Virus record (IMG/VR): IMGVR_UViG_2690316195_000001
Location: 1-41,470 of that record
Direction: 5' to 3' (one strand)
DNA length: 41,470 nucleotides
From: a virus
Lineage: Duplodnaviria; Heunggongvirae; Uroviricota; Caudoviricetes
Shown one piece after another: positions 8,499-35,689 of this stretch. The notes below the pieces were generated by a model. That model had not been told where the DNA came from. It did no database searches and saw only the letters and a list, made by a program, of their open reading frames with translations. The first letter of the stretch is position 1; the number at the start of each line of letters is the position of its first letter. The position numbers and the translations under genes were made by a program.

Positions 8499-8771
8499 TT
8501 ACCTCGCCGTCAGTTGTTTTGATTTCCGGTAGCCTGCCGCGTAAATAGCTACGTTTGGCAGGCAAATACTTCCACTGCATTCATCTGCCTTCTTGCAGCG
8601 AAGGCTTCCGAGTGATGCTGCTTTATCTGCTCTGACGCAACCAGAGAGCTTTAGCGCAATTTTTCGCGCCAGTCGCTGCTCTTGCATTGCCTGTTCACGT
8701 TGAGCCTGTCTGCGTGCTCTGCGGCGATTTCTGGCGTTATCGTCAGCCAGATATGTAATGACTACTGTCAT
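8499..8771 (-). CDS. N: N-like transcription antiterminator (P22 gp24 type)
   Basis: Arg-rich N-terminus (NARNRRRARRQAQREQ) and C-terminus ...LPNVAIYAAGYRKSKQLTAR resembling P22 gp24 as recalled; GGAGG RBS; downstream of nutL. Confidence 0.8.
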   Translation of the reverse strand: MTVVITYLADDNARNRRRARRQAQREQAMQEQRLARKIALKLSGCVRADKAASLGSLRCKKADECSGSICLPNVAIYAAGYRKSKQLTAR

Positions 8772-9084
8772 GTTGACCTCCGATGAAACAACTTTGGAAT
8801 TTTTTTTATTACAAAGTGGTTTCCTTCCCCGCCAATTAGACGGGGATGGAAGAGCATTTATGAGCCTTTATGGACTCTGCTCGATCAGTTCTATTTAATT
8901 AATCTCTCAATTGAATGTAAGTATTCACATAAATCCTCCTACCTCTTGTGCAGCTTTCTTGAATATGGTGGCGGCTGCATAACGCCTATGGAATTGACTT
9001 TGGCGGTGACGCGCCGGGTGCTTATCTTCCGGTTGCCGTCGTGCAGCTGCACTTCACGTCACCCCAAAGCCAACTACTCTTTGG

Positions 9085-9127
9085 TTCCCGCATTTCGGCG
9101 GGACAATCCCATCAATGTTAAAGAGCC
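9085..9127 (-). promoter_or_regulatory. nutL (boxA GGCTCTTTAA plus boxB hairpin)
   Basis: Minus-strand boxB is identical to the nutR boxB core (TTCCCGCCGAAATGCGGGAA); boxA-like 10-mer sits 14 nt upstream with the same spacing as nutR. Confidence 0.6.
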
Positions 9128-9173
9128 TTCCAATCTGTTCCGTTTGGCTACCAGCGTCCTGCTGATGGCTAAA

Positions 9174-9260
9174 GAATACTGTAGGTATTTTATTGTGTAA
9201 ATACCCAAGGTATTTATTTTTGATGAAATAATGATAAGCAAATGAATACAAAGGATATTT
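9174..9260. promoter_or_regulatory. OL operator cluster / pL region: three 17-bp sites
   Basis: GAATACTGTAGGTATTT (9174-9190), AAATACCCAAGGTATTT (9199-9215, perfect inverted repeat), GAATACAAAGGATATTT (9244-9260); same half-site consensus as OR. Confidence 0.6.
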
Positions 9261-9345
9261 ATTTCTTTCGGTGTCTGCTTGTTCAGTGCTTTTTTGCGGG
9301 ATATGTGAAGTGTATCCCGATAGCTATTGCTGCCGGGATTATAGG

Positions 9346-9714
9346 TTAGTCAGCGAAGGTTAAGACGAGAATTACCTTAATGATGTCTGCTACAACAGAC
9401 ACGGCCATAGATAAACCAAAGACGATCCAAGCCACAGTGATGTCTTCACTACCATCGTATAGAGTTCCGTAATCACTGGTGTAAGGCGTAAATGTCGCGC
9501 CTTGATACAATAGGTATAAGCTTGATCCATAGAGGATAAATGCAGATATCCCTTGTATTGCTATGATCACAAGAATCATGAAACGAGCTGATCTATGCGC
9601 CCAAGCCTGGCTTATTTTTTCTGATAGAGATTTCGCAATAAAAGCATGCGCTAAGCCGTAAATTGTCGAGATTGCCAACATCCCAAAAAAGCTTGCTATA
9701 GCGGTTCCAACCAT
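9346..9714 (-). CDS. Small multi-pass membrane protein co-transcribed downstream of cI (122 aa from the ATG at 9714; a TTG at 9735 is an alternative start)
   Basis: Three to four hydrophobic helices; AAGGGG RBS before the ATG at 9714; stop of cI directly upstream on the same strand. Confidence 0.6.
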   Translation of the reverse strand: MVGTAIASFFGMLAISTIYGLAHAFIAKSLSEKISQAWAHRSARFMILVIIAIQGISAFILYGSSLYLLYQGATFTPYTSDYGTLYDGSEDITVAWIVFGLSMAVSVVADIIKVILVLTFAD

Positions 9715-9731
9715 AAGCGCCCCTTGCGTGA

Positions 9732-10448
9732 TCAAACCAGCCTTAGTTTTGTCTCAATTGCAACGCCTATAATCTTGCAGTTTCCATTGATTGGCACGAG
9801 AGGCCATGCAGGATTAAGTCCCTTGAGGTATTTATTTCCGCCGTCGATTATCAGCTTCTTGAATGTTGCTTCGTTAGAGTCAGAAAGTTTTGCTATGACC
9901 AAGCTGCCGTTGATCGCCTCCCTTCCGGTATCGAAAAGAACGAATGTTCCCTCTGGAATGCTTAACCCAACCGGTGCCGTCATTGAATCACCTTCCACTT
10001 TAAGCCAAAACGCATTACCTTGAATATGCGCGTCAGACTCAAGCCAAACATCTATGTCTTTAATGGTGTATGGTTCGCATGCTTCACACCACGAGCCAGC
10101 CTGGATACTGCTTAACACCGGATACCTCTTTCCTGCTCTGTATTCCCCTGCATACCTTACGTTGGCATCGCTCTTAAGGCTTTCTGCCTGTTCTGCAACC
10201 TTGGCAGCAATTGACTGGCTAAAATCAGCAATTGAGACTTGCAACAATCGTGCAAAACCAGATGCAACCTCAACGTTTAGCGCATTTCTGCCATTAAGAT
10301 AATGCCCTACCGCTCCTTGGGTGATACCCAGTTCATCAGCGATTGAGTATTGGGTTATTCCCAATTCTTTCTTTTTTGACTCATACAAAGCCTTAAGCCG
10401 CTTAGCGTCTTCGAGCTGTTCTGTCGTCAGTGATTTTTTATTTTCCAT
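9732..10448 (-). CDS. cI: CI-type prophage repressor (LexA-like autocleaving)
   Basis: 238 aa with strong similarity to lambda cI by recall ([20 protein letters not shown]...; FWLEVEGNSMTAP; FKKLI); Ala-Gly cleavage site (QAG) and Ser/Lys catalytic motifs present. Confidence 0.95.
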   Translation of the reverse strand: MENKKSLTTEQLEDAKRLKALYESKKKELGITQYSIADELGITQGAVGHYLNGRNALNVEVASGFARLLQVSIADFSQSIAAKVAEQAESLKSDANVRYAGEYRAGKRYPVLSSIQAGSWCEACEPYTIKDIDVWLESDAHIQGNAFWLKVEGDSMTAPVGLSIPEGTFVLFDTGREAINGSLVIAKLSDSNEATFKKLIIDGGNKYLKGLNPAWPLVPINGNCKIIGVAIETKLRLV

Positions 10449-10458
10449 AGCTTAATTC

Positions 10459-10524
10459 TAATAGCTAAGGTACTTAAACTAAAAATACCCTGAGTATTGA
10501 TTGCTTTGAATACCTGTAGTATTC
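10459..10524. promoter_or_regulatory. OR operator cluster with pR/pRM: OR1 GAATACCTGTAGTATTC (10508-10524), OR2 AAATACCCTGAGTATTG (10483-10499), tentative OR3 (10459-10475)
   Basis: Perfect 17-bp palindrome plus a second site 25 bp away (centre to centre) in the cI-cro intergenic region; candidate pR -35 TTGATT (10497-10502). Confidence 0.7.
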
Positions 10525-10554
10525 TTTGTTCATGGTTAATAACGGAGAGTGCAT

Positions 10555-10749
10555 ATGATTCGAATGACACTTGCCGATTACGCCAAAATCCATGGACAGG
10601 CTAAAGCAGCCAGTGACTTTGGTGTAATCCAGTGCGCTATCAGCAAGGCCATTCTGGCAGGCCGTAACATCATGGTTACGGTAAAGCCTGATGGCAGTGT
10701 GATTGGAGAGGAAGTTCGTCCTTTCCCAAGCAACAAGAAAAACAAATAG
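10555..10749 (+). CDS. cro: Cro repressor
   Basis: 64 aa, [24 protein letters not shown]...[18 protein letters not shown] closely resembles lambda Cro; GGAGAG RBS; start trimmed from the track GTG to the ATG at 10555. Confidence 0.9.
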
Positions 10750-10755
10750 TAACAC

Positions 10756-10801
10756 CGCTCTTTAACAGTCATGGTCCTCATTCCCGCCGAAATGCGGGAA
10801 T
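10756..10801 (+). promoter_or_regulatory. nutR (boxA CGCTCTTTA plus boxB hairpin)
   Basis: boxA at 10756-10764; 8-bp stem ATTCCCGC/GCGGGAAT with 6-nt loop at 10780-10801, no T-tract, so not a terminator. Confidence 0.65.
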
Positions 10802-10856
10802 ACAACGCGCATAAGTTGATGCGCATAACTCTTATTTGTTAAGGAAATACTTACAT

Positions 10857-11135
10857 ATGGAACTTACAAGTACTCGCAAGAAAGCGAATGCAATTACAAG
10901 CAACATCCTGAATCGAATTGCTGTACGTGGTCAGCGAAAGGTTGCCGACGCGTTAGGGATTAATGAATCGCAAATTTCGCGATGGAAAGACAGCTTCATC
11001 CCAAAAATGGGAATGCTTCTGGCTGTTCTTGAATGGGGTGTTGAAGACGAGGAGTTGGCGGAACTGGCTAAGAAAGTAGCCAGAATGCTGACAAAAGAAA
11101 AAGCCCCGAAGAACGGCGAATTCTTCGAGGCCTGA
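10857..11135 (+). CDS. cII: CII transcriptional activator
   Basis: ...SQISRWKDSFIPKMGMLLAVLEWGVEDEELAELAKKVA matches lambda CII (SQISRWKRDWIPKFSMLLAVLEWGV); start set at the ATG at 10857. Confidence 0.9.
   Translation: MELTSTRKKANAITSNILNRIAVRGQRKVADALGINESQISRWKDSFIPKMGMLLAVLEWGVEDEELAELAKKVARMLTKEKAPKNGEFFEA
11093..11130 (-). terminator. oop-like antisense terminator overlapping the 3' end of cII
   Basis: Minus-strand hairpin (stem CGAAGAA/TTCTTCG extendable to 9-10 bp) followed by a TTTTTCTTTT tract; same position as the lambda oop terminator. Confidence 0.5.
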
Positions 11136-11169: not shown

Positions 11170-11331
11170 ATGACAAAACGTCGTAAGAAATACCAGGAAA
11201 AAGAAGAGATTCGACACCCTGATTCACCTGAGGGATTAGTGGTAGCCGCAGCAAATAACAGGGCGTTCGCAGAGCGCCTTGTTGGTGTTTACAGGCTAGC
11301 CAAAGCAGGAGTGAAACATGGGCGTCGTTAA
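11170..11331 (+). CDS. Possible small basic protein (53 aa), not in the ORF track
   Basis: ATG with AGGAG RBS at 11160-11164; MTKRRKKYQEKEE...; overlaps the start of the replication gene by 14 nt. Confidence 0.3.
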   Translation: MTKRRKKYQEKEEIRHPDSPEGLVVAAANNRAFAERLVGVYRLAKAGVKHGRR

Positions 11332-12208
11332 GTTAGCTGATTACAGGCATAACCCTGTACAACATCAGGAGGCATCCAGTATGGGGTATGTCTCTATACA
11401 CCGCCAGTTTATGGACAGCAGGCTCTATAAGGACTCTCAGGCAGTACATCTTTGGCTTCACTTAATCCTCAAGGCTAATCACGAATCTACTGTCGTCAAT
11501 ACGGATATCGGTCCGATAACTGTTGATCGCGGTCAGATGATAACTGGACGCCCGTCGCTGGTCAGAGAAACATTCATCCCCGACAACAAAGTTCGGAGCT
11601 TATTACGGACTTTTGAGTCGAAAGGGATGCTTAATATTTGCTCGATGGGGAAGAAATTTAGCCTGTTTACAATCGTTAAATATGACGATTTTCAGGCAAA
11701 AAATTGTCCAACGGTTGTCCAACGGTTGTCCAACGCAAACACCAGTAATGGCGCGGCTCTCAGTGGAGATTGTCCAACGGTTGTCCAACGGTTGTCCATA
11801 AACAATAATATAAATAATATCTCTAATACTGACGTATTAGAGAGTGCCACAGCAGACAAAAAGTCTGACAAGAAAAAACCTCCCGTCAGCTGTCAGGATG
11901 TTGTCGATGCTTACCACGAAATCATTCCTGAAGCGCCAAGAATCCGCGCACTGAATGACAAGCGTAAAAACCAGATCCGAACGTTCTGGCGCAAAGCCGG
12001 AGTGATAACCCGCCAGCTTGACGGACATGGGTTCACGATGCAGGACTGGAGAAATTATTTGAGCTACGTAGGCGAAAATTGCCGATGGATGTTCGAAGAG
12101 CGTCCAAACCATCAACGCGGAACCGTCTGGCACAAAAAGGGATTTGATTTCCTGCTTAACGATAATACCTACCTGAAAGTTCGTGAGGGTGAACACGATG
12201 ACCGATAA
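11318..12208 (+). CDS. Replication initiator (O-like) with internal origin iterons; alternative start at 11381
   Basis: Position after cII, iterons inside the coding sequence as in lambda O, ATGA-type overlap with the helicase gene; the C-terminal DnaT-like call is tentative. Confidence 0.75.
   Translation: MGVVKLADYRHNPVQHQEASSMGYVSIHRQFMDSRLYKDSQAVHLWLHLILKANHESTVVNTDIGPITVDRGQMITGRPSLVRETFIPDNKVRSLLRTFESKGMLNICSMGKKFSLFTIVKYDDFQAKNCPTVVQRLSNANTSNGAALSGDCPTVVQRLSINNNINNISNTDVLESATADKKSDKKKPPVSCQDVVDAYHEIIPEAPRIRALNDKRKNQIRTFWRKAGVITRQLDGHGFTMQDWRNYLSYVGENCRWMFEERPNHQRGTVWHKKGFDFLLNDNTYLKVREGEHDDR
11704..11800. repeat. Origin iterons: six copies of TTGTCCAACGG in two triplets, followed by an AT-rich tract
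   Basis: Direct 11-bp repeats at 11704-11736 and 11770-11800, encoding the repeated peptide CPTVVQRLS, then an AT-rich stretch to about 11830. Confidence 0.75.
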
Positions 12209-35568: not shown

Positions 35569-35689
35569 CCTTGATGCCTCACCAGTTGGGTGGAATGGCA
35601 TCGTAACCTACTGGATAAATACTCAATAGTACCATTTCGGTATGCAATCACATCATGGTTGCATCATATCATTCGTCTGGAGCAATGAA

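What the first reader, a model, noticed from the sequence alone, without database searches (positions are those of the whole stretch)
9174..10524. Lambda-like cI and Cro paired with a distinct operator set (GAATAC-N5-GTATTC)
The repressor and Cro closely resemble lambda cI and Cro in sequence, but the operators are different 17-bp sites. OR1 is a perfect palindrome and OR2 lies 25 bp away; OL has two sites at the same 25-bp spacing plus a third 45 bp further on. That implies an immunity specificity different from lambda despite the related proteins, and the OL layout would constrain cooperative or looped repression.
Basis: seen in the sequence. Interest (0 to 1): 0.5.

Follow-up and report, generated by a model that had tools for sequence, protein, structure and literature searches.

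The report
HK620-type phage immunity switch operators
This is the ordinary, already annotated lysis/lysogeny switch of the coliphage HK620 immunity type: a lambda-like repressor and Cro with their own operator sequence.

Summary
The region is 99% identical to the immunity region of coliphage HK620 and relatives (mEpX2, HK630, HK140, some Stx2c phages). The 2001 HK620 GenBank record already annotates OL1, OL2, OR1, OR2, OR3, pL and pR, all sequence-identical here. mEpX2 is experimentally heteroimmune to lambda. The main finding is therefore already known.

- cI is only 43% identical to lambda cI; Cro is 63% identical to lambda Cro.
It is conserved in 22 of 28 diverged relatives.

In 50 distinct related OL regions, third sites occur almost only at -45/-44, -30/-29 or -21 from OL2, and the far and near positions are mutually exclusive. 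None in this clade lies at the annotated position, and the "terminator" does not fold better than shuffles. Caveat: the site overlaps a box that lambda also carries at the same offset, so part of the match is inherited.

No binding was tested.

The parts
9173..9201 (-). pL promoter: -35 TTTACA at 9201-9196 and -10 TATTCT at 9178-9173, 17-nt spacer
   Evidence: Only sigma-70-like hit of the scan in 8750-10900. Lies inside the pL feature of the HK620 record (window 9166-9201), which is identical in sequence.
9174..9190 (.). OL1 operator GAATACTGTAGGTATTT; overlaps the pL -10 and spacer
   Evidence: Rank 3 of 41,454 with the relatives-only matrix. Identical to the OL1 feature of AF335538. Paired with OL2 at 24-25 bp in every related OL segment where a pair was found.
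9199..9215 (.). OL2 operator AAATACCCAAGGTATTT; overlaps the pL -35 by 3 bp
   Evidence: Rank 1. Identical to the OL2 feature of AF335538.
9244..9260 (.). Probable OL3 (weaker site) GAATACAAAGGATATTT, 45 bp from OL2 and about 86 bp upstream of the inferred pL start. It overlaps a box that lambda also has at this offset, and lies inside the 'tIMM' feature of the HK620 record.
   Evidence: Rank 8 (relatives-only matrix) or rank 5. P = 0.005 for its local search space. Operator-like site at -45/-44 in 26 of 50 distinct related OL segments, mutually exclusive with sites at -31..-19 (Fisher p = 8e-6). Nearly invariant in 81 near-identical copies. Not tested by binding.
9346..9714 (-). hkaS-like gene (122 aa from the ATG; the ORF list extends it to a TTG at 9735), downstream of cI in the position rexAB holds in lambda. 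Cargo of the immunity operon, not part of the switch logic.
   Evidence: hkaS in HK620. PHROG 6534, unknown function. No Pfam or PADLOC match.
9732..10448 (-). cI repressor, 238 aa: N-terminal HTH domain plus LexA-like S24 self-cleavage domain
   Evidence: Pfam HTH_3 39 bits and Peptidase_S24 84.6 bits. 43% identical to lambda cI. N-terminal domain aligns without gaps to 1LMB, E = 4e-24. Ala117-Gly118, GDSM and FKKL motifs present.
10455..10460 (-). pRM -10 hexamer TAGAAT, 6 nt before the cI ATG, implying a leaderless cI mRNA as in lambda
   Evidence: Read from the sequence. Same TAGAxT-N6-ATG geometry as lambda: TAGATT-TAACGT-ATG versus TAGAAT-TAAGCT-ATG here. Promoter activity is inferred.
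10459..10475 (.). OR3 operator (weak) TAATAGCTAAGGTACTT; overlaps the pRM -10.
   Evidence: Identical to the OR3 feature of AF335538. Rank 5. A site at this offset in 22 of 28 non-redundant relatives versus a control mean of 0.15.
10483..10499 (.). OR2 operator AAATACCCTGAGTATTG; overlaps the pR -35 by 3 bp and abuts the weak pRM -35 region
   Evidence: Rank 2. Identical to the OR2 feature of AF335538. Site at this offset in 24 of 28 relatives.
10497..10525 (+). pR promoter: -35 TTGATT 10497-10502, 17-nt spacer, -10 TATTCT 10520-10525
   Evidence: Read from the sequence. Lies inside the pR feature of AF335538 (window 10497-10532), identical in sequence. At 8 of 12 matches it is just under the threshold of the scan.
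10508..10524 (.). OR1 operator GAATACCTGTAGTATTC; perfect 6-bp arms; covers the pR spacer and -10
Evidence: Rank 4. Identical to the OR1 feature of AF335538. Site at this offset in 24 of 28 relatives.
10555..10749 (+). cro, 64 aa, lambda-Cro fold family
   Evidence: Pfam PF09048 Cro 91.3 bits against a cutoff of 32.7. 63% identical to lambda Cro. Gapless alignment to 5CRO/6CRO.

Best explanation
The region is the immunity module of a lambdoid (P22-like) E. coli prophage of the HK620 immunity type, and it works like the lambda switch. SHOWN by sequence and comparison: cI and cro are divergently transcribed. Between them lie three 17-bp operators (OR1, OR2, OR3), 25 and 24 bp apart. OR1 and OR2 overlap pR. 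OR3 overlaps the pRM -10, which sits 6 nt before the cI ATG as in lambda. About 1.33 kb away, OL1 and OL2 (25 bp apart) overlap pL. The operator core is AATAC-N7-GTATT. INFERRED: cI dimers on OR1/OR2 and OL1/OL2 shut off pR and pL. cI at OR2 activates the weak pRM. cI at OR3 limits its own synthesis. Cro reads the same sites to favour lytic growth. RecA-stimulated self-cleavage at Ala117-Gly118 induces the prophage. Specificity differs from lambda at half-site positions 1, 3 and 4 (lambda T-A-T-C-A-C, here R-A-A-T-A-C), matching replacements in the recognition helices: cI S45G, G46A, A49H; Cro Y26I, S28C, N31S. The contacts to A2, A5 and C6 are kept (cI Q33, Q44, N55, K4; Cro Gln H1, Ala H3, Lys H6). 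SUB-CLAIM, about 0.65: the third left operator is the weaker site at 9244-9260, 45 bp from OL2, not the 9221-9237 stretch annotated in HK620. By analogy with lambda it would pair with OR3 across an OL-OR loop. The overall confidence given (0.88) is for the switch as a whole, not for this sub-claim.
For: Identity: 99.1-99.3% to HK620, mEpX2 and HK630 over 9100-10800. All six HK620-annotated operators plus pL and pR are identical in sequence. Motif specificity: a relatives-only matrix puts the four strong sites at ranks 1-4 of 41,454, OR3 at 5 and the 9244 site at 8. Deep conservation: in 28 non-redundant relatives (59-84% identity in the cI N-terminal domain; Yersinia, Serratia, Pantoea, Pectobacterium, Proteus, Morganella and others) sites occur at the OR1, OR2 and OR3 offsets in 24, 24 and 22 loci, against a control mean of 0.15 and maximum of 4. 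Proteins: Pfam HTH_3 + Peptidase_S24 and Cro; gapless alignments to lambda cI N-terminal domain and lambda Cro structures. Independent code test: the published Cro 'evolutionary code' pairs Gln H1 with A2, Ala H3 with A5 and Lys H6 with G-6 (PMC6649833). This Cro has Q, A and K there, and the half-site has A2, A5 and C6, invariant across relatives at 103/104, 104/104 and 90/104. Heteroimmunity to lambda: PMC3442831; no lambda operators present. pRM geometry is the same as lambda's. OL3 sub-claim: in 50 distinct OL segments, third sites occur only at -45 (21), -44 (5), -30 (3), -29 (7), -21 (11) and -15 (1). Far only 23, near only 18, both 3, none 6; Fisher p = 8e-6. In the window's clade: 23 far only, 7 near only, 0 both, 1 none, and none has a site at the annotated OL3 offset. 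The HK620-annotated OL3 ranks about 8,500th to 17,000th. The annotated tIMM hairpin folds at -2.6 kcal/mol, z = -0.05, with no T-run.
Against: No binding, footprint or reporter data for this repressor, Cro or operators were found. The original HK620 paper is not held, and no open-access paper prints these operator sequences. For OL3: the site coincides with a box (CAAAAAATAAAT[T/A][C/T]C...TCA) that starts exactly 45 bp from the start of OL2 in all relatives and in lambda itself, whose operators are unrelated. So one half-site is largely inherited, and the fixed 45-bp offset may reflect another function. The Fisher test is not corrected for shared ancestry. The site has a T for C at position 6 of one half. 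It is centred about 86 bp upstream of the pL start, too far to occlude RNA polymerase at pL.
Confidence: 0.88

Rival explanations
1. OL has only two true operators (OL1, OL2), as in phage 933W. The 9244-9260 palindrome is the local version of a pan-lambdoid pL-upstream element, such as an IHF-binding or UP-like A/T-rich element or a module-boundary sequence, that merely resembles the operator.
For: The same box starts exactly 45 bp from the start of OL2 in lambda and in all relatives, including those whose box does not resemble the operator. Upstream of the box every locus carries unrelated cargo, so it marks the edge of the conserved OL module. 933W is documented to lack OL3 (PMC3317979). From my own recollection, not verifiable in the held library, lambda has an IHF site with an UP element centred near -86 of pL (Giladi et al. 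1990-1996); only the title of the 1992 paper was seen.
Against: In the window's clade the box specifically carries A rather than T at position 5 (AAATA[C/T] versus AAATT[C/A] in lambda and the -21 class) and (G/A)TATTC on the other side, which are operator-specific features. Operator-like boxes and alternative third sites are mutually exclusive (p = 8e-6), and 44 of 50 segments have at least one third site. That is what is expected if the box serves as the third operator where it is operator-like. An IHF consensus scan finds nothing above background at 9205-9275. The two roles are not mutually exclusive.
Confidence: 0.28
2. The HK620 GenBank annotation is right: OL3 is 9221-9237 (22 bp from OL2, lambda-like spacing) and the palindrome at 9234-9264 is the intrinsic terminator tIMM of the cI transcript.
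For: It is annotated so in AF335538. The lambda OL2-OL3 spacing is 20 bp. Some relatives outside this clade do have a third site at -21.
Against: 9221-9237 (TGATGAAATAATGATAA) scores -21 to -28 bits and ranks about 8,500th to 17,000th. No member of the window's clade has even a 7/10 core match at offsets -24 to -20. The commonest polymorphism in the near-identical population (9223 A/G) lies inside it. The proposed tIMM hairpin is -2.6 kcal/mol, no better than shuffles (z = -0.05), with no T-run, and the terminator scan finds nothing on that strand.
Confidence: 0.04
3. The palindromes are chance A/T-rich inverted repeats in promoter DNA, and the real operators are different sequences.
For: The region is A/T-rich.
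Against: The four best sites in 41 kb all fall within two 42-bp stretches overlapping pL and pR. Position and sequence are conserved in relatives from many genera while flanks and central spacers diverge. The sites agree with the Cro recognition code.
Confidence: 0.02

Closest known systems
Immunity region of coliphage HK620 (GenBank AF335538; Clark, Inwood, Cloutier & Dhillon 2001, J Mol Biol 311:657), shared by mEpX2, HK630, HK140, HF4s and some Stx2c phages
   Same: 99.1-99.3% identical DNA over 9100-10800. cI N-terminal domain 100% identical to HK140 and phi296. OL1, OL2, OR1, OR2, OR3, pL and pR as annotated there are sequence-identical here. Same hkaS gene between cI and OL.
   Different: The record places OL3 at the equivalent of 9221-9237 and calls 9234-9264 a terminator (tIMM). 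My analysis supports 9244-9260 as the third site and finds no support for either annotation. The rest of the window is a different mosaic: Sf6/HK620-like virion genes at about 96%, other early genes.
Bacteriophage lambda cI / Cro / OR-OL switch
   Same: Same protein families and folds. Divergent cI and cro with three 17-bp operators. OR1/OR2 over pR, OR3 over the pRM -10. The same TAGAxT-N6-ATG leaderless cI start. OL1/OL2 over pL. Ala-Gly, Ser and Lys self-cleavage motifs. Half-site positions A2, A5 and C6 and their contact residues are retained.
   Different: Half-site R-A-A-T-A-C-Y versus lambda T-A-T-C-A-C-C. No lambda operators present. Heteroimmune (PMC3442831). Spacings of 25/24 bp versus 24/23 in OR. 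Candidate OL3 at 45 bp versus 20 bp. OL1-OR1 distance of 1,334 bp versus about 2.4 kb. Cargo is hkaS instead of rexA/rexB. cI is only 43% identical.
Bacteriophage 933W switch (Koudelka laboratory)
   Same: A lambdoid switch whose OL departs from the three-adjacent-sites paradigm. It shows that OL3 is dispensable or variable among lambdoid phages (PMC3317979).
   Different: 933W has no OL3 and its repressor does not bind adjacent sites cooperatively. Here a third operator-like site exists but is displaced. Cooperativity is unknown. The repressor and operator sequences are unrelated in specificity.
Cro 'evolutionary code' (Hall, Cordes et al.; summarised in PMC6649833)
   Same: Gln H1 / A2, Ala H3 / A5 and Lys H6 / G-6 all hold for this Cro and operator, and across all relatives examined.
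   Different: The specificity differences from lambda lie at positions 1, 3 and 4, which the three-pair code does not cover.

Membership tests
Lambda-type CI repressor (HTH + LexA-like S24 domain) | N-terminal helix-turn-helix DNA-binding domain homologous to the lambda cI N-terminal domain | tested here: met
   Pfam HTH_3 39 bits (cutoff 23). Gapless alignment to 1LMB residues 3-90, E = 4e-24.
Lambda-type CI repressor (HTH + LexA-like S24 domain) | C-terminal Peptidase_S24 domain with the Ala-Gly cleavage site and the Ser/Lys dyad | tested here: met
   Peptidase_S24 84.6 bits (cutoff 23.3). QAG, GDSM and FKKL align with the lambda QAG, GNSM and FKKL motifs. The lambda residue numbers A111-G112, S149 and K192 come from my own knowledge.
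Lambda-type CI repressor (HTH + LexA-like S24 domain) | RecA-stimulated self-cleavage and SOS induction | not testable with these tools
   Needs a biochemical or induction assay.
Lambda Cro family (Pfam PF09048) | Full-length match to the Cro profile and to solved lambda Cro | tested here: met
   91.3 bits against a cutoff of 32.7, profile positions 1-59 of 59. 63% identity to lambda Cro. PDB 5CRO/6CRO E = 5e-19.
Lambda-type tripartite operator switch | Three operators between divergent cI and cro, overlapping pR and pRM | tested here: met
   OR1, OR2 and OR3 at 10508, 10483 and 10459. Overlaps read from the sequence. Conserved in 24, 24 and 22 of 28 relatives.
Lambda-type tripartite operator switch | Three operators at OL | tested here: inconclusive
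   OL1 and OL2 are clear. The third site (9244-9260) is supported by comparative data but overlaps a pan-lambdoid box. The annotated OL3 is not supported.
Lambda-type tripartite operator switch | Binding of both cI and Cro to these sites; pairwise cooperativity; OL-OR looping | not testable with these tools
   No experimental data found.
imm-HK620 immunity group | Same repressor DNA-binding domain and same operators as HK620 | tested here: met
   N-terminal domain 100% identical to HK140 and phi296. 99.1% DNA identity to HK620. All annotated operators identical.
imm-HK620 immunity group | Cross-immunity with HK620 or mEpX2 lysogens | not testable with these tools
   Needs a plating test.
imm-lambda immunity group | Lambda operator sequences (TATCACCGC-type half-sites) at OL and OR | tested here: not met
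   The best match to the lambda consensus within 9100-10600 has 7 of 17 mismatches; lambda's own six sites have 0-6. Recognition residues S45, G46 and A49 are replaced. mEpX2 is heteroimmune to lambda (PMC3442831).

The most novel reading that the evidence does not exclude
In HK620-type phages the third left operator has moved 45 bp from OL2, onto a box upstream of pL that lambda also carries (in lambda, as I recall, an IHF/UP-element region). Across this widespread Enterobacterales repressor family, OL3 occupies one of three discrete, mutually exclusive positions (-21, -29/-30, -44/-45), while the OL1-OL2 spacing and the OR layout stay fixed. That would be a natural experiment on how much geometric freedom the OL3-OR3 loop-closing contact tolerates. 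It would also mean that the 25-year-old OL3 and tIMM annotations of HK620 are wrong. A further lead: cI residue 34 (Y versus Q) and Cro H0/H2 (I,C versus H,T) change together with operator position 1 (purine versus pyrimidine), suggesting sub-specificities within one operator family.
Probability: 0.55. Interest if true: 0.3.

Novelty: already known. Interest (0 to 1): 0.15.

Why it matters
The main finding adds nothing new. The operators, promoters and genes were annotated with the HK620 genome in 2001, and heteroimmunity to lambda is established for phages with this immunity region.

The residual value is modest:
- It is a likely correction of the OL3 and tIMM annotation, which may have been copied into related records.
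- The relatives collected here form a set of natural OL variants (third site at 21, 29 or 45 bp) on which lambda-derived models of OL3-OR3 loop closure and pRM autoregulation could be tested.
- The family is a source of repressor/operator pairs orthogonal to lambda, with a simple recognition logic.

Tried and rejected
- **Circular matrix:** the first matrix was built from the window's own four strong sites. I replaced it with one built only from relatives' OR1/OR2 sites.
- **Ungapped OL comparison:** it was corrupted by 1-nt indels and its counts are meaningless. I redid it with MAFFT. Polymorphism among about 99% identical copies was too sparse to discriminate the OL3 candidates on its own.
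- **Original HK620 paper:** J Mol Biol 2001 is not in the held library, so I could not read how OL3 and tIMM were assigned, or whether any binding was tested.
- **Literature search for the operator strings:** no paper holds them. Searches on HK620/operator/repressor and on mEpX2 gave context only.
- **Lambda IHF/UP element:** I tried to document its position upstream of pL. Only the title of Giladi et al. 1992 was found, so the '-86' detail stays marked as my recollection.
- **IHF consensus scan (WATCAANNNNTTR):** nothing above background around 9205-9275, and nothing at 1 mismatch or fewer in lambda's own region either. The test is therefore weak.
- **First, smaller sample (16 OL segments):** it gave no clear far/near association. 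This only emerged after adding three more viral-contig scans.
- **hkaS-like protein:** no Pfam or PADLOC match.
- **Considered and dropped:** a secondary pL2-like promoter between OL2 and the third site. No convincing -35/-10 pair is seen by eye.
Full report
**What is in the sequence.**
Window 9100-10800 holds a textbook lambdoid immunity region.
- On the minus strand are an N-type antiterminator (8499-8771), a nutL site, pL, a 122-aa gene (9346-9714) and cI (9732-10448).
- On the plus strand are cro (10555-10749), nutR and cII (10857-11135).
- Centre-to-centre spacings are 25, 45 and 25 bp.

**Is it more than chance?**
Yes.
- With up to 2 mismatches to GAATAC-N5-GTATTC the 41.5-kb window has seven hits, five of them here.
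- A matrix made from the window's own four best sites would be circular. I therefore built one only from the OR1/OR2 sites of diverged relatives.

**It is a known element.**
- The region is 99.1-99.3% identical to coliphages HK620, mEpX2, HK630, HK140 and HF4s and to some Stx2c phages.
- The HK620 GenBank record (AF335538; Clark et al. 2001) already annotates OL1-3, OR1-3, pL, pR, tIMM, nutL and nutR.
- After mapping (window = locus + 7599), OL1, OL2, OR1, OR2, OR3, pL and pR are sequence-identical here.
- mEpX2, with the same immunity region, is placed in an immunity group separate from lambda and was kept in double and triple lysogens with lambda (PMC3442831).
- The immunity region has no lambda-type operators. 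The best match has 7 of 17 mismatches, whereas lambda's own six sites have 0-6.
- The window as a whole is a P22-like mosaic, with Sf6/HK620-like virion genes at about 96%.

- cI is 43% identical to lambda cI, and about 53% in the DNA-binding domain judged from lambda-immunity phages such as mEp234. Cro is 63% identical to lambda Cro. They are related, but cI is not close.
- OR has three sites.

**Evidence from relatives.**
- A genome scan with the cI N-terminal domain found 30 prophages with 59-84% identity in Yersinia, Serratia, Pectobacterium, Pantoea, Proteus, Morganella, Kluyvera and others.
- In 28 non-redundant loci, a site with at least 8 of 10 core matches (AATAC on both halves) lies at the OR1 offset in 24, at the OR2 offset in 24 and at the OR3 offset in 22.
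- Random 6-nt windows elsewhere in the same loci average 0.15 loci, with a maximum of 4.
- The family-wide half-site is N-A-A-T-A-C-Y, with A2 in 103 of 104, A5 in 104 of 104 and C6 in 90 of 104 half-sites.

**How it most likely works.**
Shown from sequence:
- pR (-35 TTGATT 10497-10502, -10 TATTCT 10520-10525) is covered by OR1 and clipped by OR2.
- pL (-35 TTTACA, -10 TATTCT) is covered in the same way by OL1 and OL2.
- A TAGAAT hexamer (10460-10455, minus strand) lies 6 nt before the cI ATG and inside OR3. This is the same TAGAxT-N6-ATG arrangement as lambda pRM, so cI mRNA is probably leaderless.

Inferred by homology with lambda: repression of pR and pL by cI, activation of pRM from OR2, negative autoregulation through OR3, Cro acting on the same sites, and SOS induction by self-cleavage. 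The Ala-Gly, GDSM and FKKL motifs align with lambda's.

**Why the specificity differs.**
- Both proteins align without gaps to the solved lambda structures.
- In cI, Q33, Q44, N55 and K4 are kept, while S45, G46, A49 and I54 become G, A, H and R.
- In Cro, Gln H1, Ala H3 and Lys H6 are kept, while H0, H2 and H5 change (Y to I, S to C, N to S).
- The published Cro 'evolutionary code' pairs Gln H1 with A2, Ala H3 with A5 and Lys H6 with G-6 (PMC6649833). The proposed half-site R-A-A-T-A-C has exactly A2, A5 and C6, here and in all relatives.
- This is an independent check that the 17-bp sites are in the right register. The differences from lambda (T-A-T-C-A-C) are at positions 1, 3 and 4.
- The assignment of individual cI contacts rests on my knowledge of the lambda co-crystal literature. 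It is inference, not a test.

**The one open point: OL3.**
The HK620 record puts OL3 at the equivalent of 9221-9237 (TGATGAAATAATGATAA). It calls the palindrome at 9234-9264 the terminator tIMM.

Against the annotation:
- 9221-9237 ranks about 8,500th to 17,000th with either matrix.
- The tIMM hairpin is -2.6 kcal/mol, no better than shuffles (z = -0.05), and has no T-run.

This gave 62 distinct cI N-terminal domains and 50 distinct OL segments anchored on the OL1/OL2 pair.
- Between -95 and -15 of OL2, operator-like third sites occur only at -45 (21), -44 (5), -30 (3), -29 (7), -21 (11) and -15 (1).
- Far and near positions are mutually exclusive: 23 far only, 18 near only, 3 both, 6 none. 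Fisher p = 8e-6, not corrected for phylogeny.
- In the window's own clade (cI residue 34 = Tyr; 31 segments) the counts are 23 far only, 7 at -29 only, none with both and 1 with neither. None has even a 7/10 match at the annotated OL3 offset.
- 44 of 50 segments have at least one third site.
- This is the pattern expected if each phage keeps one third operator whose position is free to move.

**The caveat.**
- The -45 site coincides with a box (CAAAAAATAAAT[T/A][C/T]C...TCA) that begins exactly 45 bp from the start of OL2 in every relative and in lambda itself, whose operators are unrelated.
- Everything upstream of the box differs between loci, so the box is the edge of the conserved OL module.
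- One half-site is therefore largely inherited. The operator-specific evidence is the A at position 5 (AAATA[C/T] versus AAATT[C/A]) and the (G/A)TATTC of the other half.
- In lambda I recall an IHF site with an UP element about 86 bp upstream of pL, which is where this box lies. I could not verify that in the held library.
- A consensus IHF scan is uninformative.
- I put about 0.65 on 9244-9260 being a real cI site, about 0.28 on a two-operator OL with a look-alike box, and about 0.04 on the GenBank placement. The first two are not exclusive.

- In lambda, OL3 and OR3 are thought to pair across the OL-OR loop, to stabilise it and to repress pRM (PMC2685085). 933W lacks OL3 altogether (PMC3317979).
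- Here OL1 and OR1 are 1,334 bp apart.
- 45 bp has the same helical remainder as the 24-bp OR2-OR3 spacing (4.29 versus 2.29 turns). The -21 and -29 variants do not share that phase.
- The comparative picture therefore argues that the placement of the third site is tolerant rather than constraining. Nothing here tests cooperativity.

**Verdict.**
It is ordinary.
- The only additions are the missed OR3 and a probable re-assignment of OL3 and tIMM in the HK620 family.

Noticed in passing
window 9346-9714 (minus strand; the ORF list extends it to a TTG at 9735): A 122-aa hkaS-like protein sits between cI and OL, in the position lambda uses for rexA/rexB, so it is presumably expressed in lysogens. 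PHROG 6534 (unknown function). No Pfam or PADLOC match.
   Followed up: partly
loci L004-L033 and L115-L328, between the cI stop and OL: The slot between cI and OL is a variable cargo site. Relatives have nothing there (OL2 about 800 nt from the cI start) or up to about 1.7 kb of unrelated ORFs. L010 has ORFs of 279 and 144 aa, the sizes of lambda rexA and rexB. Similarity between loci begins abruptly at the box 45 bp from OL2.
   Followed up: partly
window cI residue 34 (Tyr), Cro residues 25 and 27 (Ile, Cys); operator position 1: The window's clade (cI '..TQY..', Cro 'VIQCAISK') has a purine at operator position 1. Other relatives (cI '..TQQ..', Cro 'VHQTAISK') have T or C. This may be a sub-specificity within one operator family, but the Tyr-34 loci were grouped by that residue, not by a tree, so it may reflect a single evolutionary change.
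   Followed up: partly
window 9244-9270; lambda 35660-35683; all related OL regions: A box (CAAAAAATAAAT[T/A][C/T]C...TCA) starts exactly 45 bp from the start of OL2, in lambda too despite its unrelated operators. Its function was not established here. From recollection it may correspond to lambda's IHF/UP element region upstream of pL.
   Followed up: partly
window 9262-9345 (minus strand): Just after the hkaS stop the transcript can form a stable hairpin (region about 9308-9339; -16.2 kcal/mol for the 84-nt stretch, z = -3.3) with no following T-run. It may be the real 3' end or a processing signal of the cI operon, in place of the annotated tIMM.
   Followed up: partly
window about 9266, about 9295 and about 9314: In the hkaS-OL spacer the window differs at three positions (two substitutions and a 1-nt deletion in a T-run) from all 81 near-identical copies that could be aligned (IMG/VR contigs plus the HK620 and mEpX2 records). 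One of the three lies in the hairpin region.
   Followed up: no
window 9086-9127 (minus strand) and 10756-10802 (plus strand): nutL and nutR share a boxA (GCTCTTTAA) and an identical boxB hairpin TCCCGCCGAAATGCGGGA. The N protein (8499-8771) matches Pfam N_peptide and is annotated in HK620 as similar to phage 21 and H-19B N.
   Followed up: no
window 11803-11831 (inside the O gene, 11318-12208): Two overlapping operator-like 17-mers (12.2 and 7.8 bits with the relatives-only matrix) lie in an A/T-rich stretch of the replication gene, upstream of where the HK620 record maps its rep_origin feature (about 11702-11797 in window coordinates). Probably chance.
   Followed up: no
window 10615-10800: A 186-nt stretch (3' half of cro plus nutR) is 100% identical to part of the 254-kb Aeromonas phage AP1 record MT713136.1. 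That is an unexpected host and genome type, and may be an assembly chimera or contamination in that record.
   Followed up: no
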